A stretch of 64,000 nt of DNA from Ostreococcus lucimarinus. Taxonomy: Eukaryota. The stretch lies in assembly GCA_000092065.1 (NCBI GenBank), contig CP000582.1. One strand, written 5' to 3'. Shown here piece by piece: positions 4,919 to 64,000 of this stretch. Every line of letters starts with the position of its first letter. Position 1 is the first letter of the stretch. Made by a program: the position numbers and the translations under genes. The notes under the pieces were generated by a model, which searched no databases, was not told the origin of the DNA, and was given only the letters and a program-made list of their open reading frames with translations.

Positions 4919-5740
4919 CTACAAACGACGACCACGGCGACCACCCTTTCTACGAGTAGAATCCGTCGGCGTCGGCGTGACGTCTTCGATTCGGCCAATC
5001 TTCAACCCGGAGCGCGACAACGCGCGAAGCGCGCTTTGCCCGCCCGGACCCGGCGACTTCGTCTTATTACCCCCGGTCGCGCGCATCTTAATGTGCAGCG
5101 CCGTGATACCGAGCTCTTTGCATCGCGCGGCGACGTCTTGCGCCGCGAGCATCGCCGCATACGGCGAGGATTCATCGCGATCAGCCTTCACCTTCATCCC
5201 GCCGGTGCATCGGCTCAGGGTTTCCTTGCCCGACAAATCCGTCACGTGCTGCGTCGTCGAACGCGCGCGTCGGTCAGTCTCTCGCAATCGTCGTTCGGCG
5301 CGTCGCACGGCGCGCGCGAAAACGAAAACGAATGTCATCGCGCACGGCGTCGACGTCCTTCATCGCCGCGTCGCGCGCGCGTCGTCATCGCCATCGTGCG
5401 CGCGACGATCGCACTAGGGCTTTCATCGCGCCATCGCCATCGCCATCGTCATCGCGCGTCCCTCGCGCGCGTCGCGTCGCATCGCTCGTTCGAGCACGCA
5501 CCACGAAAGTATCGTTAAACGACGCGTAGATGTGCGCGACGCCGAAGACGAGCTCGCCCTCGCGCGCGTTGGGACCGACGTACGTAGCCTGCGCGCGGCG
5601 TCGATCGCGGTCGGGTCAGTCGGGCGTTCGCGTCGTCGTCGTCGCGCGCGCGCGCTCGGTCGCGCGCGCTCGGTCGCGCGCGCTCGACGCGATAGGCGCG
5701 CGCGTCGCGGCGTCGCGGCGTCGGTCGAGTCGCGCACCAT
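4919..5740 (-). CDS. RPS14: 40S ribosomal protein S14 (uS11), interrupted by introns
   Basis: The last exon (4919..5248) encodes [62 protein letters not shown], nearly identical to eukaryotic S14. The middle exon (5502..5588) encodes [29 protein letters not shown]. The intron at 5249..5501 has a GTGCGT donor and CAG acceptor. The first exon is inferred to be ATG only (5738..5740) followed directly by GTGCGC, since no in-frame ATG exists upstream of an in-frame TGA. Confidence 0.8.
5249..5501 (-). other. Spliceosomal intron of RPS14 (253 nt, GTGCGT...CAG, phase 0)
   Basis: The S14 homology resumes exactly across this interval (..NDTFV | HVTDLSG..). Confidence 0.75.
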
Positions 5741-10700: not shown

Positions 10701-11413
10701 GTCACATGCACTCGGAAATTCACACAGCCTTCGGCGTCAACGTAGCCCTTTTCAAAAACGTCTTCGCGCGTGATGAACGACGCGAACCCCCAATCCGCTT
10801 CGCGTCTGTCGAACGTGTGCGACGTTTCCTTCGATTCTACCACCGACGCATCCGTCGGATGAAGCAGCTGCAATTCGAACTTCGCGTGCCTTCTCCACTC
10901 TCTACTCATGTCGTCCTCGATTCGGCGCGGCTTTGTCGCCCCCGTGTCCAAGAACAAGCTCACCTGCGCCGGCGTCTCCGATTTCGAGTTCAAATTACTC
11001 CCGAACGGATACATCGCCAACCGAAAGAGTGTATCTCCGCACTCAAACGTTTGACTCACCACCTTCGCGTCTCGTTTCTTCCATCGCGAGAACTCGGCGC
11101 GCCACGAGAACGTCGTCGGCTCCGCCGTCGAGAACGCCAACTCGCTATCTTCCGAACCGCTCGACATCGATCGATCGTCGTCTTCCGCGTCCGACGCGTT
11201 GCCGTCGTCGGCATCTAACGACCGCATCTCCACTGCTCGCGCGGGCGTCGTTCGTCCGGACGCGTCGTCGTCAGTCGTCGAGGCGGGTGCGGATTCCAGA
11301 TCGATTGCCGTCGCGATTCTCCGTCGGTTTCGTCGCGCGCGAAGCGCGCGCGCCCGATCGAGCGCCCGCGAGCGATGCGCACCGTCTTGCGAGGCGATAT
11401 CATCGCCTGACAT
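7784..11413 (-). CDS. USP7: Ubiquitin carboxyl-terminal hydrolase 7 family (MATH-USP-UBL; plant UBP12/13-like)
   Basis: An intronless 1209-aa ORF with a real ATG. It has an N-terminal MATH domain, the Cys box GLKNQGATCYMNSLLQTL, the His box GGHYYAFVKP and long C-terminal USP7-type UBL repeats. The catalytic part is about 50% GC, against about 65% for its neighbours. Confidence 0.9.
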   Translation of the reverse strand: MSGDDIASQDGAHRSRALDRARALRARRNRRRIATAIDLESAPASTTDDDASGRTTPARAVEMRSLDADDGNASDAEDDDRSMSSGSEDSELAFSTAEPTTFSWRAEFSRWKKRDAKVVSQTFECGDTLFRLAMYPFGSNLNSKSETPAQVSLFLDTGATKPRRIEDDMSREWRRHAKFELQLLHPTDASVVESKETSHTFDRREADWGFASFITREDVFEKGYVDAEGCVNFRVHVTPIEEHEVDRPMQSAFYSEYDSRKETGLIGLKNQGATCYMNSLLQTLYHIPSFRRAVYHMPTNETEEAHTSMPLALQSVFYCLQYAKEGDVSTEDLTRSFGWDSYDSFMQHDVQELNRVLQDKLEEAMKQTCVEGTIQKLFEGHTTNFIECINVDYKSERKEEFLDLQLDVKGCKDIYASFDRYTEIEKLDGENKYRAEGHGLQDARKGTLFHDFPPVLQIQLKRFEYDYQRDTMVKIHDRYEFPEELDLDVGDRKYLVPESDKSVRNKYKLHSVLVHSGGINGGHYYAFVKPNLQAEDAQWFKFDDEHVTKETAEKSVVEQYGSGGAAAVDSDMDADDDSTNVRVAPNLRFQKVSSAYMLVYIREDDMDQIMCVANKSHLTEYLQARFAEEQKAKEKEAQEKKEAHLYTIIKVLTRQDLERQIASEKFFDLGNFESAQRFRLHKKSTFTKFRELVSEKLGIPAERQRYWTYSPRRNKTSRPATALPDHANTPPTWTVEKTRLKYTVPNSQHASSGEFRLYLEELDDDAFANSDPERDIWLHVKLYNPHEARLSYCGTLYASPEETLSTYMPKIKSMAGFASTASTLMFEEIAFVRESKIQIDQLSDKQVKTYPLSDPDDGSKTLQLGNGDILLIQPEITEDMEDSLKFPNVVQYADFRHNHQIVHFRELEAPKVDKVTLELTKMMSYDQVADVLASAIGLDDPLRLRFTAHHVYTNGPKSASFQFRGADTLIKMLENQQSDVLYYEVLDMPLPELQELKTLKVFFHGLNTKLVEEFQLRLSKSAAVKDVLEEVRSRLGTRVGGRKLRLLELFYSQIYKVFEEEKDIADINDQYWTLRAEEVPDDESEEDRLLRVYNISKDLSNPNQFYAYDEPMLLRTCEGETLGEVKARIKTRLEATDEDFAKWKFYIGHPPRYEILDDDELVISSKLVRIAKEGFCESTLGIEREVRGPRRPASRQGKPAGFERAIKIM

Positions 11414-26737: not shown

Positions 26738-27459
26738 TTACGCCGTCAAGAGACCCTTGTCCCGTCGCAACTCTTGCTTGTACTTGGACATGCGCGCCTT
26801 GCGTCGAGCGCCGGTGTTCTTGTGCAAGATCCCCCGCGCCACGGCCTTATCCACGGACTTTGTCGCTTCCGAGATCAACGTTTCCAAACCGCTAATATCC
26901 GCCTCCGTGCACGCGTCCGCCGCCATGAGTTCGCTCGCGTTGACGAAAACCTTCTTCATTCGCGTCGTGATTTCAGACTTTCGCGCCTTGTTATACAAGC
27001 GTTCCTTTTGCGACAATCGCGTGCGCGCAACCTTGTTTTGCGCCGCGCGCACGATGAAAGCCCCTCGAGCCGGCGACGCCGTCGTCGAGCCTGCGCGCGC
27101 GCGACCCCGCGTTTAGGGTTCCAGGTCAGTCACCGCCCCGTCCGCGCGCTTCTTATCTCCCCCTTCCTCCCGCGCGCGCGACGCGCGTTCGCCCGTCGCG
27201 CGCCGTCGAGCGATCGTCGAGAAACGCATCGTCCTCTTCCCGCGATCGCGCGACGCGTCGCGCCGCGCGCGCGCGCCCGCGACCCCTCATCGCCGCGCGC
27301 GCGCCTCCCACCGCGTCGCGCGCCGTCGCGCGCGCGTCGTCGCGCGTCGCGCGTCGCGCGTCGCGCGTCGCCCGGAGCGCGTCCGATTCGACGATTCGTA
27401 CCTCGAGCGAGCGCGGTCTTGGACGCGACGGCGTTGGAGAACGTGAGCGCGGCGTGCAT
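26738..27459 (-). CDS. Organelle-targeted bacterial-type ribosomal protein bS20, nuclear-encoded, two exons
   Basis: Exon 2 (26738..27090) is collinear with bacterial S20 (RAAQNKVARTRLSQKERLYNKARKSEITTRMKKV..GILHKNTGARRKAR). It has no in-frame ATG: a TAA lies upstream and the listed ORF starts at GTG. Exon 1 (27402..27459) encodes MHAALTFSNAVASKTALAR-G, ends at a GTACGA donor, and joins in phase 1 to a CGCGCAG acceptor at 27091. Confidence 0.75.
27091..27401 (-). other. Spliceosomal intron of the bS20 gene (311 nt, phase 1)
   Basis: Donor GTACGA and acceptor ..CGCGCAG|GC restore the frame between the presequence exon and the S20 body. Confidence 0.6.
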
Positions 27460-38837: not shown

Positions 38838-40008
38838 TCACATGCCGAGACTCTCCCGCATGGACGCCCACGCTTGGAAACCGTGCGCGTCGATGGGGAC
38901 GCGCTTTCCCGTCGTAGGTTCGACGATTGTGTCCATGACGTGTTTGAACATGCAGTCTCGAACGTACGTACCCGAAGCCGAGGCCAGGGTCCAAAATCCC
39001 GCGTCGATTTCGGATTGAAGTTGCCCTGGAGACCATCCCGAGTAGCCGACAAAGAGGCTCAAATCCTCTGGCCGAAGCGTACCCGGCCCAGAGAGTTTGG
39101 CGTTCAATTTCGCCAACTGATCTAGGTTGATGACGCGATATATCCCCGGTATCACCTCTTCAGTCATGCCTGGCTGCTCTTTCGTCGTCAAGGCGATGAC
39201 GGAACGATCGAGCGAGTGGTCCAACCCCACCGGTCCGCCGACGCCGACGACTTCTTCAGACAACAGCGACCAGTACAAATTATCGTGTTTAACCTCTGGG
39301 CAATGCTTGGCGAGCGTCCACGATTGCGTGCGATTCAAAATTATCCCAGTAGATCCGTACGGTGTGTGATCTGCATCGACGTGAGCGAGCGTAAAAGTCA
39401 GTCGACGAGATTCGCGTCGGCGCCTCCGTCTCGGCTTCCGCCCCCCCCTCTTTCTTCTCGAGCGCGCGTCGTCCGAACCACTCACCGAGCATGAAAATCA
39501 CCACGTGCGACCAAAACGAGCTCGCGTCTTCTTCTACCGCCACTAAAAGCGCGCCTTTCTCCAGGTTTTCCAATCCATGCGCCCACGTCGGCGGTGATCC
39601 GTCTCGCGAAGCCGCGTCTATGCTCGCCCCGAGCGCGGCGTTTTCAGAGTATTGCGCCACCATGCGCGCGCGAAACTCGCGCCAGTCCACCGCATGCGCG
39701 CGATCATCGCCTTCGTTTTGCGTTTGTTCGTTTCGTTCGTTCACGTCGTCGTTTTCGCGTCCTGCGCGCGCCCAAACGGAGGTTTCACGCCGTCGTCCCG
39801 GAAGGTGTCGGCGTAACCGTCCCGAATTCAACTCGAGCGCGACGGAGCGCGCGCGCGTGCGCGCGTTCTCGCATCGCGACGGCGGCGCGTGCGCGCGGTA
39901 GGCTATGTGCGCGCCGTGCGCGAGCGAGCTGAGCATGGCGCGCGACGTCGAGGGCGTGCGACGCGCGATTGTGCGCGTCGAGGGCGTGCTGGCGTGGCAC
40001 TTGCTCAT
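38838..40008 (-). CDS. YqgE/AlgH-family (DUF179/UPF0301) protein, organelle-targeted, two exons
   Basis: Exon 1 (39486..40008) ends ..SFWSHVVIFML. Exon 2 (38838..39370) begins DHTPYGSTGIILNRTQ and carries GGPVGLDH and GYSGWSPGQLQSEIDAGFW, collinear with E. coli YqgE ([23 protein letters not shown]..). The two listed ORFs are in different frames, and a 115-nt phase-1 intron joins them. Confidence 0.75.
39371..39485 (-). other. Spliceosomal intron (115 nt) with GTGAGT donor, CTGAC branch-like motif and CAG acceptor
   Basis: The frame and the homology to YqgE are restored exactly across this interval. Confidence 0.7.
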
Positions 40009-45824: not shown

Positions 45825-46189
45825 CGGCCCGACGCCGCCAACCTCGACTCGTCTTTACCGCACGCCTCAAGATTCAATCGACGCATCTCTATCGCACGCC
45901 TCAAGATTCAATCGATCGTTCACCACTTTTCAACGCCTCCAATCGCTCTTTATTCCTCTTCGCCAGTCTTCGCAGCGCCGTCTCGCGTTCGCGTTCGCTC
46001 AGCGCGGTCCAGTTGCTGATTCTACTCATCGTCCCATCCACGCCGACGACGATCGGTCCTAAACCATCGAGCGCGACGCGCGCGCCCGTTTGCACGTCCA
46101 GCTTCGTCGCATCGGCGTCGTTCGCGCTCGGAGCCGCGAGCGCCGGTGGCGCGTCGTCGGCGCCAGCCATCGTCAGAGCGCGTCGCGCA

Positions 46190-48940: not shown

Positions 48941-49027
48941 CGATTAGATTAGTTTTAGAATAGCGCAGATTTTAATGTAGAACTTAGTAGTAGTTTGGTT
49001 TATTCGAGGACAACGTGCTGCTACGAA

Positions 49028-50557: not shown

Positions 50558-51053
50558 CGTTCGCGTCGCGTAGTGCGAGCGCTGGATACACTGGCGTCAT
50601 TCGCGCGTCGTCGATTCGTCAGTCCTCGTCGCGTCGTCGTCCGCTCGTTCGCCGAATCGCGTCGCGCGCGATCGCATCGCATTTAATCCAATCCGAATTC
50701 GAATCGAATCGCGCGCTCGAATCGCGTCGCGCGCGACGTCGCGCGTCGTCGCGCGTCGATCGTTCGCGCCCTCGCGTCGCGTCGCGCGCGCACCGTTCGA
50801 CGCGCGATCGCGTCGCGCGCGATCGCGCCGAGTCGTCGTCGCATCGCGTCGCGCTTTGGCAACGGTCGAGTCGCGGACCGACGGACGGCCGGGGACGGTC
50901 CGTGTGTCGCCTTCGCGGCGCCGCGTTCGGCGACGGCGCGTCGGCAAAACGCGCGGGACTCGACGACGACACAGGGCGTCGACTCGAGTCGCACCGCAAA
51001 GGCGCGCAGTGGTGCGACTCGTAACGCGACGGCGCCGCGAAGGCGCGAGAGAG

Positions 51054-53447: not shown

Positions 53448-53510
53448 ATAGACTAGCGCGCGACGTGAGTCGGTTTTCGCGCGGTTCTCGTCGATTCGCC
53501 ACCGTCGTGC

Positions 53511-53580
53511 CAGCTCGTACCAGCTCGTATCAGTTCGTATCATCTCGTATCAGCTGCGATGACGACGACGACGACGACGA
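53511..53580. repeat. Five tandem 10-mers (cagctcgtaY-like) followed by (GAC)7, 64 bp downstream of the hAT ORF
   Basis: cagctcgtac cagctcgtat cagttcgtat catctcgtat cagctgcgat, then gacgacgacgacgacgacgac. They might be subterminal repeats of the element. Confidence 0.5.
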
Positions 53581-53639
53581 ATGCGTACGGGTCGCGCGCG
53601 CGCGAAAGCTGCTCGATCGATCGCTCGATTATTACGATA

Positions 53640-54701
53640 TCACTCGTCGGGATGCGGGACGATGAAAGCGGCGGCGTCGGTGCGAACGTCGGCGTCGCGC
53701 GAACCGCGGCGACGGGACTCGGCGGCGGCGCGCGAGGGCGACGGCGAGGGCGAAGACGCGGGCGAAGCGACGAGCTCGCCGACGATGACGTCTCGCGGAG
53801 AATCGCCGAGGGCGTCGGGGTGAGGGTCGGTGGAGGCGGTGGTGACGGCGCGGGAGGGTCGCTTGCGACGGGCGTCGCGGCGCGCGCGTCTGAGAGCCGT
53901 CGCGAGGGACTCGCCGAGCGGCGCGCGCGAGTTTTCGGCGTCGGCGACGACGACGGGTAATCTCGGTAAACCTCGCGCCTCGATCGCGCTCACGATGACG
54001 GCGACTTCGCCGAGATCTAAACCGCTGAAAATTACCGCGCGCTGACTGCCGTACTCACCGCCGCGAGCGAGAGCCGCGTCGCGCGGCGATTCCCAGTCCG
54101 GTTCTCGCGTTCGAGCCACCTCTTCTAAAGTCATCCACGCGTGCTCGCTCCGCGCGGGGATCACGGGTACGTCGTAACCACCGAGTTCGTCCACCAGCAC
54201 GCGCACTCGAGGCCACTCTTCGGCGCGGAAACCGACGAGGATGACCGCCGGCGGTCCGCTCGGCGTCGACGCGGCCGCGTCGGCGACCGTCTTCGCCGTC
54301 GCGCGCGCGGTGATGCCCAATATCTCAGCCTCTCTCTCCTCGCTTAAATCACCGTGCGACGTTTCAGGTTCGTACTCCCACTCGTCGTCTTTTTTTGCGA
54401 CCGACGCCGCGTTCGTCGTCGCCGCGTCCCGCTCGGGCGCCGCGGCGTCTTCGACCCCTTGCGCGTCTCGCGCCTCACCCGCGCGCCGTTCGTCCTCCAT
54501 CGCCGCGTCCATCATCTTTTGCAACCACGGGTCATCGCCGCCGTCACCGTCGCGCGTCTCGCTCGCACCGCGCCGCGTCCTTTCGCGTCGTCGTCGTCCA
54601 CTCGCGACGCTGACGCGGCGGCGGCGAAAAGCAACCGCCGAAGACGCCGACGTCGACGTCGTCGCGCGACAGCGCGCCGCCGCGCCCGTCGCGGGCGCCA
54701 T
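53640..54701 (-). CDS. Hypothetical organelle-targeted protein
   Basis: A real ATG; MAPATGAAARCRATTSTSASS.. looks like a transit peptide. A conserved-looking core (VILVGFRAEEWPRVRVLVDELGGYDVPVIP..AVIFSGLDLGEVAVIVSAIEARGLP) has no family assignment. Confidence 0.35.
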   Translation of the reverse strand: MAPATGAAARCRATTSTSASSAVAFRRRRVSVASGRRRRERTRRGASETRDGDGGDDPWLQKMMDAAMEDERRAGEARDAQGVEDAAAPERDAATTNAASVAKKDDEWEYEPETSHGDLSEEREAEILGITARATAKTVADAAASTPSGPPAVILVGFRAEEWPRVRVLVDELGGYDVPVIPARSEHAWMTLEEVARTREPDWESPRDAALARGGEYGSQRAVIFSGLDLGEVAVIVSAIEARGLPRLPVVVADAENSRAPLGESLATALRRARRDARRKRPSRAVTTASTDPHPDALGDSPRDVIVGELVASPASSPSPSPSRAAAESRRRGSRDADVRTDAAAFIVPHPDE

Positions 54702-54958
54702 CGGTTTTGTTTCGTTTCGTTCGCTTTCGTTTCGTTTGACTCGGTGATGCGACGCGCGAGGAGTGAAGTGAAGCGAAGGGCGGTTGAATTCTGGTTTGTT
54801 TTGGTTCGTCGCGCCGCGCCGCGACGCTTGGGCGCCGTTGGTAATGTATTCGTTCGTAAAATACGCACCGTAGGCGTCGTCTAGGTGTGGATTCGTCGGT
54901 GATGTCGAGCGCGTGCCGCCGTCATCGCGCTAAAGCGTTTATTCAATCGCCGGTTCGC

Positions 54959-56038
54959 TCACGCGCGCCCGCCGTCGCGCATCGTGCCCACGCACACGCG
55001 AAGGGCAAACTCTAACATGCGGATCGGGATGAGAAAGACGCTGATCGGAAACGGAAGCTTGAAGCCGTACATGATTTGCGACCAAAATCCCGTCATCGCG
55101 AGGACGAAGATGGCGAAATTGAAAACCGTTCCTTTTTCATCGATGACGTTTGGTCCGAGGTACTTGTGGCGGACGAGATACGTCAACAGCCCACGAGCAA
55201 AGAGTTGTGCGCCACGCGTTGCAGAGTGATACGCGGTGATGGCCTGCTGAACTAACCACGCCGCGATGACACCTATGACTTTACAGGCATATCTCACGCC
55301 AGGTCCAACCCATTTCTGATACTCCTTGGGCGTGCTCATCATCAACACGGGGGTGAGATTTTCATCGACGATGTTGTGCACGATGTCACCAACAGCGACA
55401 CCAAGAGAGACACACGCCGCGAAATGCACGCGTAATGTAGCCACGACGGCCACGAACCCCATGTAGATCGCACCCAGAGCATCTCCAACCTGTTCAGGAT
55501 CCATACTCTTGGCGACGACGCCAATCTTTCGAACCACCAACGCCTTCTTCGTAATCTCTTGCGTATCCGGAATGCCGTTGTGGTCTTCATCTAGCTCATC
55601 GTCCTTCAAGCTCGCGCGCTGCGCAGCTTCGATATTGCGCCATATTATCACCAAAGCGTCTCGAGTGTTCGCGTAGCCGGTGATTCTGTACGCCTCCACC
55701 GCCGCCGTGATCGTGGCAAAGTATCCGCCAAAGAAGCACAGGATGAATCCAACGATCGCCGGTCCAAACTCTTGCGGGTGGTACGGTTGCAGCGCGAGCC
55801 AGGTTTTCCGACAAAACTCAAACGTGGCCACGGCGTAGGGTTCAGATTGCGCCGCCAAACGGCTCGCGGCGACGAGGGCGGGGCCGGCTTTATCTAATAC
55901 CGTTGGGAGCGTCGTCAAGCCCGCGGTGACGACGGACGGCGACGGCGCCGACTGGGCGACGACGTGTTTCACCGGCGGCGCCGAAGGCGGTGATTTCGTC
56001 GCCTTGTTGGATTTCAATTTACGCGAAAACACGGACAT
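54959..56038 (-). CDS. Hypothetical multi-pass membrane protein
   Basis: A real ATG. An S/P-rich presequence is followed by 6-8 hydrophobic helices (IVGFILCFFGGYFATITAAV.., FNFAIFVLAMTGFWSQIMYGF). No assignable domain. Confidence 0.35.
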   Translation of the reverse strand: MSVFSRKLKSNKATKSPPSAPPVKHVVAQSAPSPSVVTAGLTTLPTVLDKAGPALVAASRLAAQSEPYAVATFEFCRKTWLALQPYHPQEFGPAIVGFILCFFGGYFATITAAVEAYRITGYANTRDALVIIWRNIEAAQRASLKDDELDEDHNGIPDTQEITKKALVVRKIGVVAKSMDPEQVGDALGAIYMGFVAVVATLRVHFAACVSLGVAVGDIVHNIVDENLTPVLMMSTPKEYQKWVGPGVRYACKVIGVIAAWLVQQAITAYHSATRGAQLFARGLLTYLVRHKYLGPNVIDEKGTVFNFAIFVLAMTGFWSQIMYGFKLPFPISVFLIPIRMLEFALRVCVGTMRDGGRA

Positions 56039-56206
56039 CGGTCGCGCGCTCGAGGGCGCAGGCGAGAAGTGCGGAGTGCCTTTCGAGGCGCGCGACGGAT
56101 GTTGCGACTAGAATTACAATACTACAACATGCGCACATGCTTTCGCTACGCGACACGTGCACGGCGGGCTAAAGGACAGTGACTCGAGTCAGGCGCTTCT
56201 TTCGCT

Positions 56207-57142
56207 TCATAGTTTCTCTCCGATCAACTTTTTAAGCAAAACGCGTCTTGCTCCGAGTACCCCGCCGAGTCCGTACCACCACGGATCTTCGCCACAGGCG
56301 ACGTATCCCCGGCGCTCATACATCTCGCGTGCGCGCTGATTATCGACATCAACATGAAGCCAAAGATGGGTGTATCCCCAAAGCCGCGACGCACGTTCGC
56401 ACTTCACCAACATCGAGCTCGCGACGCCTCGTCCGCGCGCGTCGGCTTTGACGGCGACGTTACTGACGTACGGAACACGTGGTTTTGTCGTCGGAAATGG
56501 CTCCGGAAATAAAGCTTCTGGTGAACACACGCGAAGGCTTGCGCTTCCTACCCAACGAGACTCATCATCGGCGACGGCTTCGTCCAGGCGCGAGATCAGC
56601 GTCAAGCACTGCGCCTTTTGTCTCGCGCGAAGCGCTCGCGCGTCGTTTTTCGCGTATTCATCGCCGAGTTTCTTCATTTCACGAATTTCACGACTCGCCT
56701 TCTTCCGTTCTTCAATCTGGTGCGTCGTCATGTGCTTCAACTCCTTCGCGATCGAGCGCGCGTACGCGTCGTCCAACATTTTCTTCACCGCCTCCGCCGC
56801 GTCGTCCAGCGCGTCGCCGCGACGCTCGGACTTTTCCTCGACTCGCGTTTCGTACGCGAACGCGTCCCCGCAGACTTTCGCCGCCGCCGCCGCGTGCGCC
56901 GCCGTCGTCGCCACGCGCACGTGCACGCGCGCGCCGCGCGCCGCGCTACCGCCCGCGTCGTCGGCGGCGCGCGTGGACGTCGGCGAAGCGTCGTCGACGT
57001 CCGGCGCGGACCGCGTCAGCACGCGCGCGCGCGTCACCGAGGACGACGCGCGGGGAGTCGAGCGGCGCGACGGCAACGACGACGACGCGCGCGCGGTGGG
57101 ACAGGACGCACGCGCGCGCAGAGCGATTACAGCGGGCGTCAT
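56207..57142 (-). CDS. GNAT-family N-acetyltransferase with transit-like presequence
   Basis: Acetyl-CoA motif VAVKADARGRGVASSML and ..THLWLHVDVDNQRAREMYERRGYV are present. Confidence 0.7.
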   Translation of the reverse strand: MTPAVIALRARASCPTARASSSLPSRRSTPRASSSVTRARVLTRSAPDVDDASPTSTRAADDAGGSAARGARVHVRVATTAAHAAAAAKVCGDAFAYETRVEEKSERRGDALDDAAEAVKKMLDDAYARSIAKELKHMTTHQIEERKKASREIREMKKLGDEYAKNDARALRARQKAQCLTLISRLDEAVADDESRWVGSASLRVCSPEALFPEPFPTTKPRVPYVSNVAVKADARGRGVASSMLVKCERASRLWGYTHLWLHVDVDNQRAREMYERRGYVACGEDPWWYGLGGVLGARRVLLKKLIGEKL

Positions 57143-57357
57143 AGCTTCTCGCAGGCCGCGGACGAGTGGCGCTGGAATGATCGCATCAACCCCGCTTGAG
57201 GCAAACAAACAAGGACTGAAGGAGACAAGACTTCGCTCAGCTCAGGAGGACGTTGTAAATAAGCTCTGTGCTTGCTCTTTTTCTAATGAACGGTGAATTC
57301 GACGATGATTTCAAAGACGGTTTAACTTGAATATTTCAAGGGTGTCGTACGTGATAC

Positions 57358-59324
57358 TTAAAATCGCTCACCGAATCGAACATATGTGGAGGCCGTGCCG
57401 CTGTTGTTATCAATGCACCACTCCGCTCGCACCGGCCCCAGTTTGATACCAACACCGTGAGTTGATCCTTTACCAGCTCTTCGATAAAACTCCGTTGGGT
57501 TACCTGATAACGCTGAACTTGACGATAAGTCGGAGCATTGCTCCCAAAATAAGAAGCCGTGTGTTTTCAATACAGGAACAGGGAGGCGTATCTCAACTGC
57601 AGTCTCGAGAAGAGAGCGTGCGGCGCCAAGTTCACCCACGGTGTATCCTCTACAAGAGTGCGGGCCACCCAAAGCAAAAGCATCGTAAGCTGCGCAATTC
57701 CCAAGAATGTGACCTGCTCGAGTGTGCAAGACAACAACAGGAGGAGGAAGAGAATTTTTCTTGTTTTCTGGCAGCAACTGAACAAATCGTGTTAATTCGA
57801 CTTTGGAACGGTTGAATATCGGTCGTTTTGGCCAAAACGGAATCGACTGATCGATCTGAAATATATCTCGGGCGCCGACTTGCGTACCGTTTACAAACGT
57901 CGTCGTGTCTCTGGTGACATTACCCTGAAGGAACATGACTCGATCTGTACCTGTGTCAGATAACGTAGTTCGAGGACCATCAAGCGACAGAGAACCATTT
58001 GGGAGTTGTTTTGCGCCAGACGCACATACCGCTCCCGAATCATCACGCGTTGTCACTTCTTCTAATACCATACCAAGTGAGCACTTCGACTGCTTTGTAA
58101 AGTTCTGGCAAACCGTCGCCTTGATACCTGCTCTATCGACCCAAATGCCGGGAACATCTTGAATCAGAGGCCCTCCGGTGAAGACCGGGGACAGTTTCCG
58201 CGAATTGAAAGCCGCAGCTTTGAAAGATGTCTTATCGCTATCAGCGTCGCCTTTGCAGTACGGGTGGTTGTACTCCAGTTTGAACCCCAGATCTTCCTGT
58301 GGTTCAAGGAAGTTGGCTGTTGAAATCGACCCAAAAAGTTGACGTCCCCAGCTATCCAGATTCCTGTGTTCAAAGAACACAGAACCACCTGGACGCGCCG
58401 AAACAAGATCTGGACGACCATTTTCACCTGGTGCGATACTCCATTCAAGTTCAGTCTCCGCTGTCTTCGTTGGTCTTTCGCGAAGTAGTATATCAACTTC
58501 AATTTTGGATGGATCGCGCTCATCAGGTCTCGGTACAACTTGGACGTTGTCAAACAACTGCAGTAGGAAAATATCACGCAATGCCGTCTTCGCGTCTTCG
58601 ACGTTATAGAGTTTTCCAACTTTAAAATTATGTTCCCTCTGAATCACACGCGGATGAGTCACTCCCTTGTTGCCAGGCATTGGCTGGAGATTCTCGTCTA
58701 CAAAGACCGCTTGGACTCGTGTGATTTCTCCCTCGACGACGTGTGCTATGACCTCACCATTTTCCATTCCATCGAAGTGTGATATCGTACCGAATGTGAG
58801 GCCCTTGCTGGTGTAGTAACCCTCTACGATATTTTTTGCTGTCGCCAACACGCGGACTGTACAGTTTTGACTTTTCCGAGCAGCTTTCAAAACCTCTTGT
58901 TCGACATCTTTTGGAAGTGCAGTCGACCCAGCAACTCTAAACGATTGTACCTGCGGCCAGATCTTTTCTCGAAAAACAAACTCAACTGCGTAACCATCCT
59001 GTTTGGGCGTGACATTGGCGTCAACGTTTGCGAAGAGACCTGTGTTAAGAAGCTGTTCAAGATCATCAGAGAGATCTTTCTTCGAAAGTTCCGCGCCCTT
59101 CCGCGCATTGAGACCCTGAAATAATTCGGACTGTATTGAAAGGAGTTAGTAATAAGTTAAATATTCATGCCGCCTTCCTTACCTTCGTCGGAATACCTGG
59201 ACCGGTCGGAAGATTCGTCGCGAGGACTGATTCACAAATGAAATTATCCCTGTTCTTGGGCTTGTTTGCGGCACGGGCAGTATTTGTGGAGGATTCGTCG
59301 TCGCTGTCGTCGTCGTCATCATCT

Positions 59325-59362
<38 letters not shown>

Positions 59363-59812
59363 GTATTCAACATCGTCGTCGTCAACACTGAGCTCGCCTT
59401 CTCCACCGGAAGCTCGAGCGTCAGCGATAGGAATCGCGGTCAGAAGGTAAATGTTGCTACCACTGTGGCCACTCGAATCGTCAGAGTCCCAACCGTCACC
59501 ACTACCGTCGTTGCCATTCCCGATGCCGGAGCCATGATTTCCACTACCTCCACTTCCAACCTCTGGTTCCTCAGTCACAGAGCTGCAAGCTGTTCCTTGT
59601 TTATGTTTGCTCCTGAGGGTTACACGAAACAAAGAGCGCGACGGTGTGTTGCGCGTGGGCGAAAAAGACCAGTTGGTGCCGGAAGCTCGACGGCTAAATT
59701 TTCCACCCGATGATGCTACGCTCGACGACGCTTTATGTTTATTGTATCGGTGACTGGGCGCGGCGGACTTGATGAAAGCGGCGCGGGAAGAGACCTCCGC
59801 AAGGACGGACAT
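57358..59812 (-). CDS. TOC75: Toc75/OEP80-family (Omp85) chloroplast outer-envelope beta-barrel protein, two exons
   Basis: Exon 2 (57358..59130) encodes POTRA-like repeats and a barrel ending ..GVGIKLGPVRAEWCIDNNSGTASTYVRFGERF, with the GYTVGELG motif. Exon 1 (59183..59812) encodes a transit-like, Gly/Ser-rich stretch and a poly-Asp run. A 52-nt phase-0 intron joins ..PTK | SELFQGLNARKGAEL.. Confidence 0.75.
59131..59182 (-). other. Short spliceosomal intron (52 nt) with GTAAGG donor, TACTAAC branch motif and TACAG acceptor
   Basis: The frame is continuous only if this segment is removed; its stop codon otherwise splits the Toc75 ORF. Confidence 0.7.
59296..59390. repeat. (GTC/GAC)n trinucleotide array encoding poly-Asp in Toc75 exon 1
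   Basis: About 18 consecutive gtc units lie on the + strand, giving DDDDDDDDDDDEDDDDDD in the protein. Confidence 0.8.
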
Positions 59813-60250
59813 GTTCTATCGAAGGCCGCTGTTCTCTATCAAGCGCCAGGGTGTACTTGAATTTTTCGAGAGACTCAAAATGAACCTACTATAAGTGGCG
59901 GCAGCGGACTCAGCCGGTTGAGCACGGCGCGCGAATGACGCCGTGCGCCCTCAAGGGCGAAAGGCTTGAAGCGGAAAGGGTGTCATAATCGACATCGCGC
60001 TTTTCGTATTTAATACGCTTTGAAGACCATACTGGTACCCAAAATAAAAAACTATCATGTAGGTCTCCCCCGAAGGAATAATTTATATCAGACAGATAGA
60101 CTTTAGGCGAATGAAGACAAATTATATGCATTCTTAATCAGTTCATGTTTCGAGTTTACACATAAACTGAGGCGCGCAGCGGCACGGAGCCGTCGACAAC
60201 CGTGCGGCCGCCACTCGCGCGAGGATATCCCATGCACCACAGCTTTCTGA
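59813..60250. promoter_or_regulatory. AT-rich bidirectional promoter region (Toc75 / LTV1)
   Basis: It is ~45% GC with TATAAG and TATAAA-like elements, in contrast to the GC-rich divergent spacers elsewhere in the window. Confidence 0.4.
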
Positions 60251-61624
60251 ATGGGAGGTCGCAAGAAGACGTCGTTTGTGGATAAAAAGAGCGCGGTGAC
60301 GTACGCGTTGCTCCCTAACCACGACCGACAAGCGCACAGCCTCGGCCTTCCTAACACATGGGTCCGGACGGACAATAACCAGGGTGCGGACCCCTTCGAT
60401 GACGGCGATCACGTTGGGCGGGAACTCGAACGTGAGCTCCGAGAAAGCCATTCACAACACGTGTCCGCGGGCGATCTTTCAAATGAAAAGGACACAAACA
60501 ATAAATTGACGGCATCAGAGAAGTTGGAACTAGGACTTCCAGACGACGGCTATGATTACACTAAACACTTAAGAGAGTGCGACCCAGATAAAGTACGTAC
60601 CGTAGAAAGTGATTATGCAAATCCACGCAGTGAGATATTTACGAAAAGCATTGACCACGCAAGAACCGAGTATGCGGGCGGGGCAATGAACCAAGGCGAG
60701 TGTGATTTTCACACCTTGCACGAACAAGATAACATTGCCGACGTGTTACAACTTCTTGACGACATAAGCCAAGGCGGATCAATGGAAACCTGCGCTTACG
60801 AGGAGTTACAAGACGATATAATTTTCTTGGCTAGTCAGCGTAAAAGTGAAGAGCGGTGCTCATCGCCTTTCTTGCCCCGAAAAGTAGAGCCGTTGAGTCC
60901 GCAAACCCATCGTGCAGCCACGAAAGTATTAGTAAGAAGTTCAAGTGATGCGGTAGGGAACGAACGTTCAGACGATAGCCATTTTCTGCGTATGATCCAT
61001 AACTACGATGACGACGATCTTGGCGCTACGCCGATGAAAGATGAGAGCAATATTAGATCTGAGAACACAAAATGGCAGACTCTTGAGCAGTTGAACTTCA
61101 ACGATGGAAATTTACAAAAGCATAACGTGGATGCACGCACAGTGAAAAGTTATGCGCTCAATCATAGTGAGGAACAAACTCCACGAAATGCCTACTTAGA
61201 AGAAAGCATTCTGGACAAAAGAACTCAAGCGACCCACATGTATGACTGCGAAAGCATTTTGAGTTTGCACAGTAACTCAAACCATCATCCAAAACTTCTT
61301 GAAGGGAGACTTCTGAGTGAAGAACGTAAATTGAAAACGCCAGATCAACAGAGTGCAAGCATTCCGGGCATTCATACTTGTTTTCCTCTCGGTATGAAAG
61401 CATCATCAGAAGCTGAATTCGATTGGCGCAGCTGCACAGCTCGTAAAGGAGAAAGTGCTCAACAGAAAAAGGAGCGCAAAAATGCCGTCAAAATGGGCCG
61501 TCGACAAGCTCGAAGTACGAAAAAGGGGTTGAAAGAAAGTTTTCAATATTTCAAGCAAGCAGGAGCTGGGGGCGGTAGCTCTGGGGATGTAAGAGCAAAG
61601 ATATCTGTGACAAAAATGCAGTAG
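60251..61624 (+). CDS. LTV1: LTV1 pre-40S ribosome biogenesis factor
   Basis: The N-terminus MGGRKKTSFVDKKSAVTYALL matches LTV1 (MGKKKxFIDKKxAxTF). The basic C-terminus (KKERKNAVKMGRRQARSTKKGLKESFQ) is also LTV1-like. Confidence 0.7.
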   Translation: MGGRKKTSFVDKKSAVTYALLPNHDRQAHSLGLPNTWVRTDNNQGADPFDDGDHVGRELERELRESHSQHVSAGDLSNEKDTNNKLTASEKLELGLPDDGYDYTKHLRECDPDKVRTVESDYANPRSEIFTKSIDHARTEYAGGAMNQGECDFHTLHEQDNIADVLQLLDDISQGGSMETCAYEELQDDIIFLASQRKSEERCSSPFLPRKVEPLSPQTHRAATKVLVRSSSDAVGNERSDDSHFLRMIHNYDDDDLGATPMKDESNIRSENTKWQTLEQLNFNDGNLQKHNVDARTVKSYALNHSEEQTPRNAYLEESILDKRTQATHMYDCESILSLHSNSNHHPKLLEGRLLSEERKLKTPDQQSASIPGIHTCFPLGMKASSEAEFDWRSCTARKGESAQQKKERKNAVKMGRRQARSTKKGLKESFQYFKQAGAGGGSSGDVRAKISVTKMQ

Positions 61625-61675
61625 CATATCCATGTGGTTGCTCAGTTCTGAAGCATTTCTAGCGTAGGCGCTGTA

Positions 61676-64000
61676 TTATTTAGGTGTCATTTTCGACAAC
61701 AAATTGATCGCATCTGATAGCGCAGATTCATCAATTTTTTCTTCTATTCGCAGATCCAAGTACTTGTGTTCGATACCGAAGCATAAAGACAGCTCGTTGG
61801 AAATCCCTTCAAGCTCACTGATGACACAAATAGGAATATCAGACATGAAGTCAGGATTGACACGGAATAATGGATCACGCGATGAGTAGAGGAGCTGAGT
61901 GCAGCATAGAATACTCAATGTCTCGTTCGGGCATTCATTGACACTATTTGGATTGCTCTCTATAAATACTCTGCGCAAACTTGCGTTGACAGATGCGGAT
62001 TCGTTCTTGACTTCAGGATAAGAGGATGCAAGCAATGCCGCATAACTGAGAATTTTTCCTACATCCGAATTATTCTGTTGCGAGACGAGGACTTCATACT
62101 CTTTTGTGAATAAAGTAACCAAGCCAAGTATTTTTGGGTTCGACTGTATTGCATCACTGGCTTGCTCGCGCCAAGATGGGTCTGCGCATACATGTTGCTT
62201 TGTTTCACACAGTCTCACGAATTCTCGAGCGATATACACTCCTAAACCACGCGTGACTAGTATCACTTCATCGCCGTTGTTAATGTCTAAATAAGCGCGT
62301 ATGCGTTGCACATACATTGCGGCAAGCTCTGAGACGCTTGCTGCGGTGGAGGATTGCCAGTCCGTAGTAACGACGAAAGCTGCTGATTTTATCGACGAAG
62401 CTAGGCTGGAATAAAAACTAGTTCCACAGTCTACGTCATTGAGAAAGACGACTATGGGAGTTGTTGTATTACCATTCAATCGCGTAATAAAGCTTCGACT
62501 CACAGGTGAATTTCTATGCTTCCATTGCGGGAGTCGGTATCTCAAAGTAGCTGCAATGCGCTGAGATTGCTCAGATAGGTTACCTGGAGAAGCTGCATCT
62601 TTCCAGGCATTGGCCAGAGTCGGATTTATGAAACAATGCGACAGAATATTAGGGTCTGCGGCACCTTTTCCTCCCGGTTCGATGGGCTCAAACATTTTCG
62701 CATTATTATAAGAATAAGGATTTGTCATGTTCGTGCAAGAGGGCAATTTTAGAAAGTCGCATATTTTGTCGATATGCGACGTAGGATCAGAAACTAGGTC
62801 TTCGTAACAAATTTCCAATTGTCGAGTACTTTCTACATTGCGCAGAAAATCAATGATGTTGGAATTTCCTCGTGCCCATAATTTATCCATATGGCTCCAG
62901 ATCTGCTCGATGGTGGATGCAGATAGAAGCTCCAAACGTTTGCGGCCATTTAATTGTAGCAACTTCTCATTTTCAAGGATATCATGCCTTGATTTGAAAG
63001 TTTCTTTTGACATGGAGTGGATCGTTGCGTACGGATGCCTGTGTATGAATATATAGTACACATCTTCAAATATTGATTCGGCTCGTTCCAAAGTGTCCAA
63101 AGACCACGAATAAGGTGGCGACTTGTCCACTAGAATCCGATCGCCACACCAATTTTGAAGGACTTCATAGACATTCTTTGTTGACATGGAATGCATGTCG
63201 TGCATTATTTTATCAGCTTCATCGGCGAAACAGCCGCGAAGTTCTACAATAGCTTTACGCAAACCTTCAAACGCCCACGAGTGTCCACGAGATATTGACT
63301 CAAACCTTTGGTACATCGTCTCAAAATTTAGCAAGTAAAGTTCTTGAGGTGCAAAAATTGATGGATGAGAGTTTAGTATCATCTGCAAAAGAGTTGAACC
63401 AGACCTCGGCGACGACAACACGAATAGTATCTTTCCCTTCACCTTTGGCTCGTGGAGCCGTAATCGGGGCATCCATGAATTCGAATCTGTTAGTGGCGTA
63501 TACTTTTTAACTTGCGACTCTATCCACAAACAAATGCGCTCACCGGCACTTAATCCTACTGAGAATGTTTCGCGTGTGACCACTTTGATTGCGGCGTCAA
63601 CACTCGCTGCGATCCCTTTGATAGTATTCTCTCTGAATTCGCCAGACCCACAGTGGCTGAATCCAATATCTCGCAGTACATTGTGCAAAGGCTCTGACAT
63701 TGACAGTGGATGTCGGCGTCGACATGGCTCGTTTCTGCTAAGTGAGCTGTGTAACTCGTTCCAAATACATTTTTGTAGTTGGAAGGTCAACCGATTTGCG
63801 TCAACATGAGTATTCTGGTTAGCGGCGTTGCATCTGGTAAGTAGAACGTTTTGTCTGTGGCGAGGTTCTTGAAAAGCCCGGCAATCGCGGCGCACATTTG
63901 TGAGCACGTGTGCCATACTACCGCCATAACCAAAAGAGCTCGTGCCGATTATACCTCCGCTAGTGGGCCCTTTTAGCATAGGAAAGTGTGATCGCTTGTC
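61676..64000 (-). CDS. 3' end of a type I polyketide-synthase-like gene: KS C-terminus, a CurM/OLS-type sulfotransferase (ST) and a thioesterase-like alpha/beta hydrolase; truncated at the window edge
   Basis: The reading frame is open to nt 64000. GIIGTSSFGYGGSMAHVL resembles the KS C-terminal motif (SSFGFGGTNAHV). KILFVLSSPRSGSTLLQMILNSHPSIFAPQELYLLNFETM matches the PAPS-binding start of CurM-type activating sulfotransferases. The C-terminal ~250 aa (PIVVFLNDVDCGT..EVILVTRGLGVYIAREF..) is collinear with offloading thioesterases. Confidence 0.65.
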   Translation of the reverse strand, partial: DKRSHFPMLKGPTSGGIIGTSSFGYGGSMAHVLTNVRRDCRAFQEPRHRQNVLLTRCNAANQNTHVDANRLTFQLQKCIWNELHSSLSRNEPCRRRHPLSMSEPLHNVLRDIGFSHCGSGEFRENTIKGIAASVDAAIKVVTRETFSVGLSAGERICLWIESQVKKYTPLTDSNSWMPRLRLHEPKVKGKILFVLSSPRSGSTLLQMILNSHPSIFAPQELYLLNFETMYQRFESISRGHSWAFEGLRKAIVELRGCFADEADKIMHDMHSMSTKNVYEVLQNWCGDRILVDKSPPYSWSLDTLERAESIFEDVYYIFIHRHPYATIHSMSKETFKSRHDILENEKLLQLNGRKRLELLSASTIEQIWSHMDKLWARGNSNIIDFLRNVESTRQLEICYEDLVSDPTSHIDKICDFLKLPSCTNMTNPYSYNNAKMFEPIEPGGKGAADPNILSHCFINPTLANAWKDAASPGNLSEQSQRIAATLRYRLPQWKHRNSPVSRSFITRLNGNTTTPIVVFLNDVDCGTSFYSSLASSIKSAAFVVTTDWQSSTAASVSELAAMYVQRIRAYLDINNGDEVILVTRGLGVYIAREFVRLCETKQHVCADPSWREQASDAIQSNPKILGLVTLFTKEYEVLVSQQNNSDVGKILSYAALLASSYPEVKNESASVNASLRRVFIESNPNSVNECPNETLSILCCTQLLYSSRDPLFRVNPDFMSDIPICVISELEGISNELSLCFGIEHKYLDLRIEEKIDESALSDAINLLSKMTPK

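What the first reader, a model, noticed from the sequence alone, without database searches (positions are those of the whole stretch)
59131..59182. 52-nt intron with TACTAAC branch site in Toc75, contrasting with longer GC-rich introns elsewhere in the window
The intron sequence (reverse strand) is GTAAGGAAGGCGGCATGAATATTTAACTTATTACTAACTCCTTTCAATACAG: 52 nt, AT-rich, with a perfect yeast-consensus branch point 16 nt upstream of the AG. Removing it joins ..GIPTK to SELFQGLNARKGAELSKKDL.. in frame and yields an ~800-aa Toc75-like protein. The other four introns I could define (RPS14, bS20, YqgE-like) are GC-rich, 115-311 nt long and lack TACTAAC. Two intron populations in one locus argue for separate evolutionary histories or constraints in the two compositional compartments.
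Basis: seen in the sequence. Interest (0 to 1): 0.5.

Follow-up and report, generated by a model that had tools for sequence, protein, structure and literature searches.

The report
Spliced mini-intron in algal Toc75 gene
The 52-base intron in the chloroplast import-channel gene Toc75 is real and is removed from the mRNA, but it is an ordinary member of the short, AT-rich intron class already described for the low-GC (candidate mating-type) region of Micromonas-like marine green algae.

Summary
Observation confirmed. Window 59182..59131 (minus strand) is a 52-nt, 35% GC, phase-0 GT-AG intron (aag|GTAAGG...TACTAAC...CAG). Six environmental transcript-like contigs (~99.8% identical) carry the exact exon-exon junction. 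Three genomic copies (window, L025, L026) keep the intron. Splicing gives an 800-aa Toc75 (POTRA + Omp85). The four comparison introns are as described: 115-311 nt, GC 0.64-0.80, no TACTAAC.

Short AT-rich "BOC1"/mating-type-region introns versus uniform GC-rich canonical introns were published for Mamiellophyceae between 2008 and 2026. Two corrections apply. First, the GC-rich introns do not lack a strong branch site: all four carry GACTGAC. The short class is the one with weak signals: exact CTAAC in 1 of 15 independent short introns (this one), a degenerate YTNAY near the acceptor in 14 of 15. Second, this intron has no separate origin. Its position is shared by relatives with 49-54-nt AT-rich introns in low-GC DNA and 192-228-nt GC-rich introns in high-GC DNA. 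An M. commoda-like gene has lost it.

In passing: window 57142/57143 is the exact edge of a low-GC region that has two unrelated haplotypes in one species.

The parts
59131..59182 (-). 52-nt U2-type GT-AG intron, phase 0, GC 0.35 (BOC1-class mini-intron) in Toc75
   Evidence: Sequence read. Exact excision in six transcript-like contigs. Retained in genomic contigs L025 and L026.
59177..59185 (-). 5' splice site aag|GTAAGG
   Evidence: The junction position is fixed by the spliced contigs. GT is invariant in four orthologues.
59145..59151 (-). Branch-site motif TACTAAC (branch A at 59146, 15 nt from the intron's 3' end)
   Evidence: ACT.AC is the only invariant interior block in four otherwise unalignable orthologous introns. 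Actual use as the branch point is inferred, not mapped.
59131..59144 (-). Pyrimidine-rich stretch and 3' splice site TCCTTTCAATACAG
   Evidence: TC and AG are invariant in the alignment.
59165..59167 (-). In-frame TGA met if the intron is retained (truncates the product at 215 aa)
   Evidence: ORF 59165..59812.
59183..59812 (-). Toc75 exon 1 coding part (210 codons: transit-peptide-like N-terminus, Gly-rich stretch, poly-Asp tract)
   Evidence: Identical to P0001.
57358..59130 (-). Toc75 exon 2 coding part (590 codons + stop: POTRA domains and Omp85 barrel)
59813..59926 (-). 5' UTR; five transcript contigs start at 59916-59926
57160..57357 (-). 3' UTR (transcript contigs end between 57336 and 57160)
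57142..57143 (.). Edge of the low-GC region. Similarity to nine contigs of the same species stops exactly here, at the ATG of the acetyltransferase gene.
   Evidence: The window-type junction is confirmed in L025/L026 and in a sister species, L030.
5589..5737 (-). RPS14 (uS11) intron 1, canonical class: 149 nt, GC 0.80, atg|GTGCGC, GACTGAC 27 nt from the 3' end
   Evidence: Spliced model gives Pfam Ribosomal_S11 1-110/110.
5249..5501 (-). RPS14 intron 2, canonical class: 253 nt, GC 0.68, GTGCGT, GACTGAC 25 nt from the 3' end
27091..27401 (-). bS20 intron, canonical class: 311 nt, GC 0.77, GTACGA, GACTGAC 35 nt from the 3' end
   Evidence: Pfam Ribosomal_S20p.
39371..39485 (-). YqgE/AlgH-like (DUF179) intron, canonical class: 115 nt, GC 0.64, GTGAGT, GACTGAC 27 nt from the 3' end
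   Evidence: Pfam DUF179 continuous across the junction.

Best explanation
This is an ordinary U2-type spliceosomal intron of the 'BOC1' class. These are the short (<75 nt), AT-rich introns found in the low-GC region of the big outlier chromosome (the candidate mating-type locus) of Mamiellophyceae. Here it interrupts the essential chloroplast outer-envelope channel gene Toc75 of a Micromonas-like alga.

Shown: the 52 nt are removed precisely from the mRNA, restoring an 800-aa reading frame. If retained, the frame stops after five codons.

Inferred: recognition is by intron definition through three elements. One is a near-consensus donor (AAG|GUAAGG, pairing with U1/U6). One is a UACUAAC branch site pairing with U2, 15 nt from the junction. 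The last is a short pyrimidine run plus CAG.

The intron is ancestral. Its position pre-dates the split from green algae only 60-63% identical in Toc75. Its size and composition follow the local mutational and selective regime: 49-54 nt and 0.33-0.41 GC in low-GC DNA, 192-228 nt and ~0.66 GC in high-GC DNA. It is absent from the M. commoda-like copy, which sits in high-GC DNA.

Within its class it is unusually well equipped. Most sister introns have only a degenerate YTNAY near the acceptor, while this one keeps ACT(A/C)AC at a fixed distance in four lineages. That implies purifying selection on efficient splicing of an essential gene.
For: Exact junction in six independent contigs, five of them with clustered 5' ends. 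Intron retained in three genomic copies. Premature TGA if unspliced. Pfam Toc75 architecture of the spliced product. Meets the published BOC1 criteria of length <75 nt and GC <43% (PMC3879977) and lies in a 0.43-0.53 GC block with a sharp edge. Same intron position in L020/L030, L021/L022 and L031 (54, 49, 51 nt), and in L027 and L029 (192, 228 nt). No intron in L023/L024, whose ORF clusters at >=90% identity with M. commoda XP_002504526.1. Only GT, ACT.AC, TC and AG are invariant in the intron alignment. Survey of 15 independent short introns: CTAAC 1/15, CTRAY 4/15 (1.2 expected), YTRAY 7/15 (2.7 expected), YTNAY 14/15 (5.6 expected). The literature describes the class and its weak signals.
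Against: I could not verify that the six intron-less contigs are cDNA-derived; this is inferred. The grounds are their size, their common 5' ends, the absence of neighbouring genes, and the intron's presence in all genomic copies. The source organism and chromosome were not identified, so location in the BOC1/mating-type region rests on composition, gene content, the two-haplotype edge and synteny with relatives. Branch-point use is not mapped. The short-intron survey is small. Fourteen of its 15 introns come from one relative (L021), and their boundaries come from homology-guided models, not transcripts. The introns in L027 and L029 are inferred from homology alone.
Confidence: 0.93

Rival explanations
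1. The intron belongs to a distinct population of 'TACTAAC mini-introns' with its own origin (for example an invasion of short mobile introns into low-GC DNA), separate in history from the GC-rich introns.
For: Sharp contrast in length, GC, donor and branch motif with the four canonical introns of the window. Micromonas is known to host mobile introner elements (PMC3879977, PMC4815162).
Against: The position is shared with high-GC relatives that carry long GC-rich introns there, so it is ancestral. The orthologous mini-introns share no sequence beyond the splice signals. No repeated copies occur in the window. CTAAC is absent from the other 14 independent short introns examined. Introner elements are reported to be virtually absent from low-GC regions.
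Confidence: 0.03
2. The intron is a typical splicing-deficient mating-type-region intron: often retained, giving a truncated, NMD-targeted transcript. Splicing would then be leaky rather than efficient, and might even regulate Toc75.
For: Condon et al. 2026 report mean intron retention of 0.33 in the M. pusilla mating-type region, higher for short, low-GC introns and for highly expressed genes. Branch-point presence had little predictive power. A retained intron here gives a TGA after five codons.
Against: All six assembled transcript contigs are spliced and none retains the intron. The donor and branch site are near-consensus and conserved. Assemblies report only the dominant isoform, however, so partial retention is not excluded. 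This reading is compatible with the best explanation.
Confidence: 0.2
3. It is not an intron. The locus is a frameshifted pseudogene or an assembly error, or translation starts inside the downstream ORF.
For: None beyond the bare fact that the two ORFs are in different frames.
Against: The same 52 nt are present in three independent genomic sequences and precisely absent from six transcript-like contigs. The first Met in the exon-2 frame lies about 115 residues in, which would remove POTRA1 and any targeting peptide. Four orthologues have the same structure.
Confidence: 0.01
4. It is a U12-type (minor spliceosome) intron.
For: A TCCTTTCAA stretch near the 3' end faintly resembles the U12 branch consensus TCCTTAAC (the consensus is from my own knowledge).
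Against: The donor is GTAAGG, not [AG]TATCCTT. The conserved block is ACTAAC, the U2-type branch consensus.
Confidence: 0.01

Closest known systems
BOC1 introns of Mamiellophyceae (Derelle 2006, from memory; Moreau 2012 PMC3491373; Verhelst 2013 PMC3879977), also called mating-type-region introns (Condon 2026 PMC13298755)
   Same: Length 52 nt (<75). GC 0.35 (<0.43). GT-AG. Lies in a low-GC block of an otherwise 0.55-0.75 GC genome. Host gene is a housekeeping protein-transport gene. The position is conserved between species.
   Different: Carries a perfect, conserved branch consensus, whereas the class is described as having 'no discernible branch-point motif' or depleted branch points. All six assembled transcripts are spliced, whereas the class is reported to show frequent retention.
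Canonical Mamiellales introns (donor AG|GTGCGT, branch GACTGAC/NCTGAC; Irimia & Roy 2008 PMC2483917; Verhelst 2013)
   Same: U2-type, GT-AG, with a strong branch motif of the same register (nACTrAC).
   Different: Canonical introns in this window are 115-311 nt, GC 0.64-0.80, as GC-rich as their exons or richer, with the branch A 25-35 nt from the acceptor. The Toc75 intron is 52 nt, GC 0.35, 15 points below its exons, with the branch A at 15 nt and donor GTAAGG.
Saccharomyces cerevisiae and hemiascomycete introns (invariant UACUAAC branch site)
   Same: Identical 7-mer branch sequence and a GTAnGn donor.
   Different: In yeast the motif is near-universal (for example 99% ACTAAC in K. lactis). 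Here it is an exception within its class (1 of 15). There is no phylogenetic link; the match is what an AT-shifted version of GACTGAC looks like.
Introner elements of Micromonas (IE-A to IE-D, D-IE, ABC-IE)
   Same: Spliceosomal introns in the same group of algae. The ABC-IE type is also short (64 +/- 7 nt).
   Different: Introner elements are repeated sequences, GC-rich and virtually absent from low-GC regions. This intron is a singleton with no copies in the window and no similarity to its own orthologues.

Membership tests
BOC1 intron (definition of Verhelst et al. 2013) | Length below 75 nt | tested here: met
   52 nt
BOC1 intron (definition of Verhelst et al. 2013) | GC below 43% | tested here: met
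   GC 0.35, against ~0.50-0.52 in the flanking exons
BOC1 intron (definition of Verhelst et al. 2013) | Located in the low-GC (BOC1) sub-region of the big outlier chromosome | tested here: inconclusive
   The intron lies in a 0.43-0.53 GC block that begins sharply at 57143. The block has two unrelated haplotypes in one species and a trans-specific arrangement, as expected of the mating-type locus. In relative L021 Toc75 sits beside ClpP and eIF2alpha genes full of mini-introns. The chromosome and the organism were not identified.
BOC1 intron (definition of Verhelst et al. 2013) | Singleton: no similarity to other introns | tested here: met
   No repeat family includes it. Orthologous introns align only at the splice signals.
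U2-type spliceosomal intron | Precise removal from the transcript at GT...AG | tested here: met
   Exact 60-mer junction in L001-L006
U2-type spliceosomal intron | Branch site of the yNCTrAy type upstream of the acceptor, used for lariat formation | not testable with these tools
   The motif TACTAAC is present and conserved. Lariat mapping is needed to show use.
Canonical Mamiellales intron | Donor GTGCGT-like and branch (G)ACTGAC, GC-rich, >100 nt | tested here: not met
   Donor GTAAGG, branch TACTAAC, 52 nt, GC 0.35
Introner element | High sequence identity to many other introns of the genome | tested here: not met
   No copies in the 64-kb window. Only the window could be searched, not the whole genome.
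U12-type intron | Donor [AG]TATCCTT and branch TCCTTAAC | tested here: not met
   Donor is GTAAGGAA
Toc75 / Omp85 family (host gene) | N-terminal POTRA domains followed by an Omp85 beta-barrel | tested here: met
   Pfam PF25282, PF25280, PF07244 and PF01103 on the spliced product. 72% identical to the cluster holding the M. commoda 'chloroplast envelope protein translocase'.

The most novel reading that the evidence does not exclude
Introns of the low-GC mating-type region are described as lacking branch-point signals and as splicing-deficient. The reading not excluded here is that they do use a branch site, but a degenerate YTNAY placed only 8-22 nt from the acceptor (14 of 15 short introns, 5.6 expected). 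That differs from the GACTGAC at 25-50 nt used for canonical introns, so motif searches built on the genome-wide consensus would miss it. Within this class, selection is uneven: an essential single-copy gene such as Toc75 keeps a yeast-grade ACT(A/C)AC at a fixed 12-15 nt in four lineages whose intron sequences are otherwise scrambled. The same ancestral intron is long and GC-rich where the gene lies in high-GC DNA, which gives a natural experiment on how recombination-linked composition reshapes one intron.
Probability: 0.4. Interest if true: 0.4.

Novelty: already known. Interest (0 to 1): 0.2.

Why it matters
As a discovery it matters little. [quoted passage not shown]

The case is still a clean worked example. 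One ancestral intron in an essential gene is seen in three states: mini and AT-rich, long and GC-rich, and lost. The state depends on the compartment the gene sits in. This intron also shows that at least some introns of the 'signal-poor' class keep a strong, selected branch site.

The window also captures, to the base, the edge of a low-GC region that exists as two unrelated haplotypes in one natural population. That could be used to genotype candidate mating types in metagenomes.

Tried and rejected
1. Ab initio detection of short introns from open-frame geometry and splice-site scores. It gave hundreds of candidates and picked the wrong acceptor even for the verified Toc75 intron. I abandoned it for homology-guided models.

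2. Exact look-up of my spliced RPS14 protein to obtain transcript support for the canonical introns. The tool turned it away. I relied on Pfam continuity instead.

3. A composite 1,733-aa query (E2 plus the two other low-GC ORFs) to name the organism and find transcripts. It returned only long, distant E2 fusion proteins. That label rests on Toc75 being 72% identical to M. commoda, on GTGCGT/GACTGAC introns, and on the 0.45 versus 0.65 GC compartments.

4. tblastn with E. coli S20 failed. A consensus-like S20 sequence found the gene.

5. Introner-element repeats in the window: none, only low-complexity GC-rich matches.

6. Rfam scan of the window: no match. tRNA scan of the window: none.

7. 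Hypothesis that the Toc75 hits at 85-88% identity are the copy on the opposite haplotype of the same species. Rejected for L020/L030: its high-GC flank is also only ~76% identical to the window, and it shares the window-type gene order. It is therefore a sister species. Where the alternative haplotype keeps its Toc75 remains unknown.

8. The second TACTAAC in the window (plus strand, 2698-2704) has no AG within 40 nt downstream and lies inside a long minus-strand ORF. I treat it as a chance match.

Full report
**1. The observation**

The minus strand of window 59182..59131 reads GTAAGGAAGGCGGCATGAATATTTAACTTATTACTAACTCCTTTCAATACAG.

Upstream lies an ATG-initiated open frame (59812..59183) ending ...GIPTK. 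Read through the intron, this frame stops at a TGA five codons in; it is the ORF 59165..59812. The downstream frame runs from 59130 to the stop codon at 57360..57358, and opens only after the TAA inside TACTAAC. Because 52 is not a multiple of three, the two frames differ.

Removing the 52 nt gives a 2,403-nt coding sequence and an 800-aa protein. Its Pfam architecture is POTRA1_3_Toc75, POTRA2_Toc75, POTRA and Omp85.

**2. Is it spliced?**

A protein search returned three full-length, essentially identical proteins (P0001-P0003, 799-800 aa) called on contigs of only 2.4-2.9 kb. The six contigs behind them (L001-L006, six different JGI samples) align to the window from about 59926 to 57160-57336 with 3-6 mismatches. 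Each has one 52-nt gap.

Each contig contains the exact 60-mer made of the last 30 nt of exon 1 and the first 30 nt of exon 2. None contains the donor or the intron core. Five of the six start within 10 nt of each other (59916-59926), and none reaches a neighbouring gene. L002 carries an inverted internal duplication that I take to be an assembly artefact.

By contrast, two independent genomic contigs retain the intron unchanged: L025 covers window 53550-60055 at 99.1% and L026 covers 57016-64000 at 99.94%.

I therefore treat L001-L006 as assembled transcripts, and splicing as shown. The sample type itself could not be checked with these tools. The 799/800-aa difference is one Asp in the poly-Asp tract.

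**3. The comparison introns**

| Intron | Coordinates | Length (nt) | GC | Donor | Branch motif | Branch A to 3' end (nt) |
|---|---|---|---|---|---|---|
| RPS14 intron 1 | 5737..5589 | 149 | 0.80 | atg\|GTGCGC | GACTGAC | 27 |
| RPS14 intron 2 | 5501..5249 | 253 | 0.68 | GTGCGT | GACTGAC | 25 |
| bS20 | 27401..27091 | 311 | 0.77 | GTACGA | GACTGAC | 35 |
| YqgE/AlgH-like | 39485..39371 | 115 | 0.64 | GTGAGT | GACTGAC | 27 |
| Toc75 (the finding) | 59182..59131 | 52 | 0.35 | aag\|GTAAGG | TACTAAC | 15 |

The spliced models give single continuous Pfam matches: Ribosomal_S11 1-110/110, Ribosomal_S20p and DUF179.

These introns do not lack a strong branch signal, however. All four contain the identical 7-mer GACTGAC, 25-35 nt from the acceptor. 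They are as GC-rich as their exons or richer, whereas the Toc75 intron is about 15 points poorer than its exons.

**4. What is already known**

Irimia & Roy 2008 (PMC2483917) described the same pattern in Ostreococcus. Most of that genome has uniform GTGCGTG donors and GACTGACG branch points. The intron-dense half of chromosome 2 has variable, weak signals.

Moreau et al. 2012 (PMC3491373) generalised the low-GC 'BOC1' region to all Mamiellales, with small introns, shuffled gene order and housekeeping genes including protein transport.

Verhelst et al. 2013 (PMC3879977) defined Micromonas BOC1 introns as <75 nt, <43% GC and located in that region. They report GT-AG ends but 'no discernible branch-point motif', with 73% of positions shared between two species. 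Their canonical introns have AG|GTGCGT donors and an NCTGAC branch.

Condon et al. 2026 (PMC13298755) showed that introns of this region, now regarded as a UV mating-type region, are shorter, GC-poorer, depleted in branch-point motifs and frequently retained.

The Toc75 intron meets the length and GC criteria and sits in a 0.43-0.53 GC block. The 'two intron populations in two compartments' idea is therefore correct but published.

**5. Is TACTAAC a property of the class?**

TACTAAC alone is not enriched in the window: 2 matches against 1.34 expected.

To sample the class, I used a low-GC locus of a relative (L021, Toc75 77% identical). There, the genes for eIF2alpha, ClpP and proteasome alpha-6 are chopped into many pieces. 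I defined junctions by enumerating GT/GC...AG pairs between anchored exon peptides and keeping the pair that best reproduces a guide protein. The branch motif was never used in this step. The guides were P0108 and P0139 for eIF2alpha, P0109 for ClpP, and human PSMA1 from memory for alpha-6. The alpha-6 model was then checked with Pfam: Proteasome_A_N 1-23/23 and Proteasome 1-175/189 in one stretch.

This gave 14 introns of 45-61 nt. Together with the window's intron (15 independent introns, mean GC 0.41), the counts for a motif with its branch A 8-22 nt from the 3' end are as follows.

| Motif | Observed | Expected from shuffles | P |
|---|---|---|---|
| CTAAC | 1/15 (Toc75) | 0.35 | 0.29 |
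| CTRAY | 4/15 | 1.2 | ~0.02 |
| YTRAY | 7/15 | 2.7 | ~0.01 |
| YTNAY | 14/15 | 5.6 | <0.0002 |

So the class has at most a degenerate branch-like element close to the acceptor, consistent with the literature. The perfect TACTAAC is an exception, not a signature.

**6. History of this intron**

| Locus | Toc75 identity to window | Local GC | Intron at the same phase-0 site | Branch-like motif |
|---|---|---|---|---|
| Window | - | 0.43-0.53 | 52 nt | TACTAAC |
| L020/L030 | 88% | low | 54 nt | AACTAAC |
| L031 | 88% | low | 51 nt | TACTCAC |
| L021/L022 | 77% | low | 49 nt | AACTAAC |
| L027 | 63% | 0.63-0.78 | 192 nt, GC 0.67 | no CTRAY; pyrimidine-rich 3' end |
| L029 | 60% | 0.62-0.67 | 228 nt, GC 0.65 | none near acceptor; pyrimidine-rich 3' end |
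| L023/L024 | 72% cluster | 0.57-0.69 | none | - |

The shared site lies after the AAG codon of ...GIP(T/S)K and before (S/A)ELF.... In an alignment of the four mini-introns, only GT, ACT.AC, TC and AG are invariant.

The ORF of L023/L024 clusters at >=90% identity with M. commoda XP_002504526.1. This locus reads ...GIPTKAELFGG... without interruption. That fits Moreau's remark that RCC299 has a high-GC cluster of BOC1 orthologues lacking the intron enrichment.

The intron is thus ancestral. Its form follows the compartment. 'Separate evolutionary histories' is not supported for it; 'different constraints' is. The L027 and L029 introns are inferred from homology only.

**7. Mechanism**

*Shown:* precise excision, frame restoration, and a premature stop if the intron is retained.

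*Inferred from established spliceosome biology:* AAG|GUAAGG pairs with U1 and then U6. UACUAAC pairs with U2, bulging A59146. The short pyrimidine stretch TCCTTTC and CAG define the acceptor 15 nt downstream. At 52 nt the intron must be recognised by intron definition.

Compared with GUGCGU and GACUGAC, the Toc75 signals are the AT-shifted versions of the same pairing sites.

Conservation of ACT(A/C)AC at 12-15 nt in four lineages argues for selection on splicing efficiency in an essential single-copy gene. Partial retention cannot be excluded from assemblies alone.

**8. Context found in passing**

Nine genomic contigs from Tara and other metagenomes (L011-L019, up to 532 kb) match window 44914-57142 at 99-99.9%. 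They then diverge completely at 57142, the ATG of an acetyltransferase gene.

Beyond that point they are also low-GC (0.44-0.50), but carry a 2OG-Fe(II) oxygenase, a kinase, RPE65, a cyclin, TIMELESS and two tRNA genes instead of Toc75.

The window-type junction is nevertheless real: L025 and L026 contain it. It is also shared by a different species, L020/L030, whose coding DNA is only 70-77% identical on both sides.

So there are two unrelated low-GC haplotypes abutting identical flanks within one species, and one of the arrangements is trans-specific. That is what is expected at the border of the candidate MT+/MT- locus of Mamiellales (Benites 2021, PMC8557840).

**9. Verdict**

This is a real, spliced intron and an ordinary member of a known class. 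Its emphasis on TACTAAC as a class marker, and on the GC-rich introns lacking a branch consensus, is wrong.

Two things are modestly new: the three-state history of one ancestral intron, and the hint that the 'signal-poor' class uses a degenerate, acceptor-proximal branch site.

Noticed in passing
window 57142/57143; L011-L019 (for example L013 1-8896), L025, L026, L030: This is the exact edge of the low-GC region. Nine contigs of the same species (flank 99-99.9% identical) switch at this base to a completely different low-GC sequence carrying 2OG oxygenase, kinase, RPE65, cyclin and TIMELESS. Two contigs of the same species, and a sister species only ~76% identical, share the window's arrangement (Toc75 next to the acetyltransferase). 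It looks like the border of a two-haplotype, trans-specific mating-type locus.
   Followed up: yes
L013 8544-8623 and 8712-8787: In the alternative haplotype, tRNA-Leu(CAG) and tRNA-Arg(CCT) lie 110-350 nt inside the low-GC side of the boundary. The window has no tRNA gene at all.
   Followed up: partly
L023 10016-10519 (and L024): The M. commoda-like Toc75 lies in ordinary high-GC DNA (0.57-0.69) on a 1.2-Mb contig and has no intron at this site. The gene seems to have left the low-GC region, or never entered it, and lost the intron.
   Followed up: yes
L027 5700-5891; L029 2991-3218: Two unidentified, more distant green algae keep the same Toc75 intron position, but with 192-nt and 228-nt GC-rich introns that end in long pyrimidine tracts and have no CTRAY motif near the acceptor.
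   Followed up: partly
L021 2300-3800 (-), 4100-5300 (+), 16300-17700 (+): There are very dense mini-introns in housekeeping genes next to Toc75 in a relative: at least 5 in eIF2alpha, 3 in ClpP and 6 in proteasome alpha-6. All are 45-61 nt. Several have weak donors (GTGCCA, GTTCGA, GTATCT) and AAG or GAG acceptors.
   Followed up: yes
window 59299-59368 (-), Toc75 exon 1: A long poly-Asp/Glu tract (IDDDDDDDDDDDEDDDDDDSDDE) follows a Gly-rich stretch in the Toc75 N-terminal extension. Environmental transcripts differ by one Asp codon (800 versus 799 aa) and by K653E.
   Followed up: partly
window 61676-63979 (-): The 767-aa ORF at the window's end has a sulfotransferase domain preceded by a ketoacyl-synthase C-terminal extension. 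It is therefore the tail of a polyketide synthase that continues beyond the window. The sister species L020 has a PKS (PP-binding, ketoacyl-synt) in the same position relative to Toc75.
   Followed up: partly
window 60251-61624 (+): This 457-aa ORF in the low-GC block has no Pfam match and no informative homologue found. Its function is unknown.
   Followed up: partly
window 7784-11413 (-): A USP7-type ubiquitin protease gene (MATH, UCH and USP7 C-terminal domains) forms a ~0.48-0.52 GC island inside the high-GC part. A canonical-type GC-rich intron candidate (11382..11233, 150 nt, GTGCGC...GACTGAC) lies near its 5' end but is in frame and unverified.
   Followed up: no
window 5738-5740 / 5737 (-): In RPS14 the first intron appears to begin immediately after the start codon (ATG|GTGCGC), so exon 1 would contribute only the initiator Met to the protein.
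   Followed up: partly
window 57160-57357 (-): The Toc75 3' UTR in transcript contig L003 runs to within 18 nt of the ATG of the next gene on the same strand (acetyltransferase, 57142). There is essentially no intergenic spacer at the compartment boundary.
   Followed up: no
L002 2536-2908: This transcript contig ends with an inverted copy of window 57548-57920. It is probably an assembly chimera, not biology.
   Followed up: no
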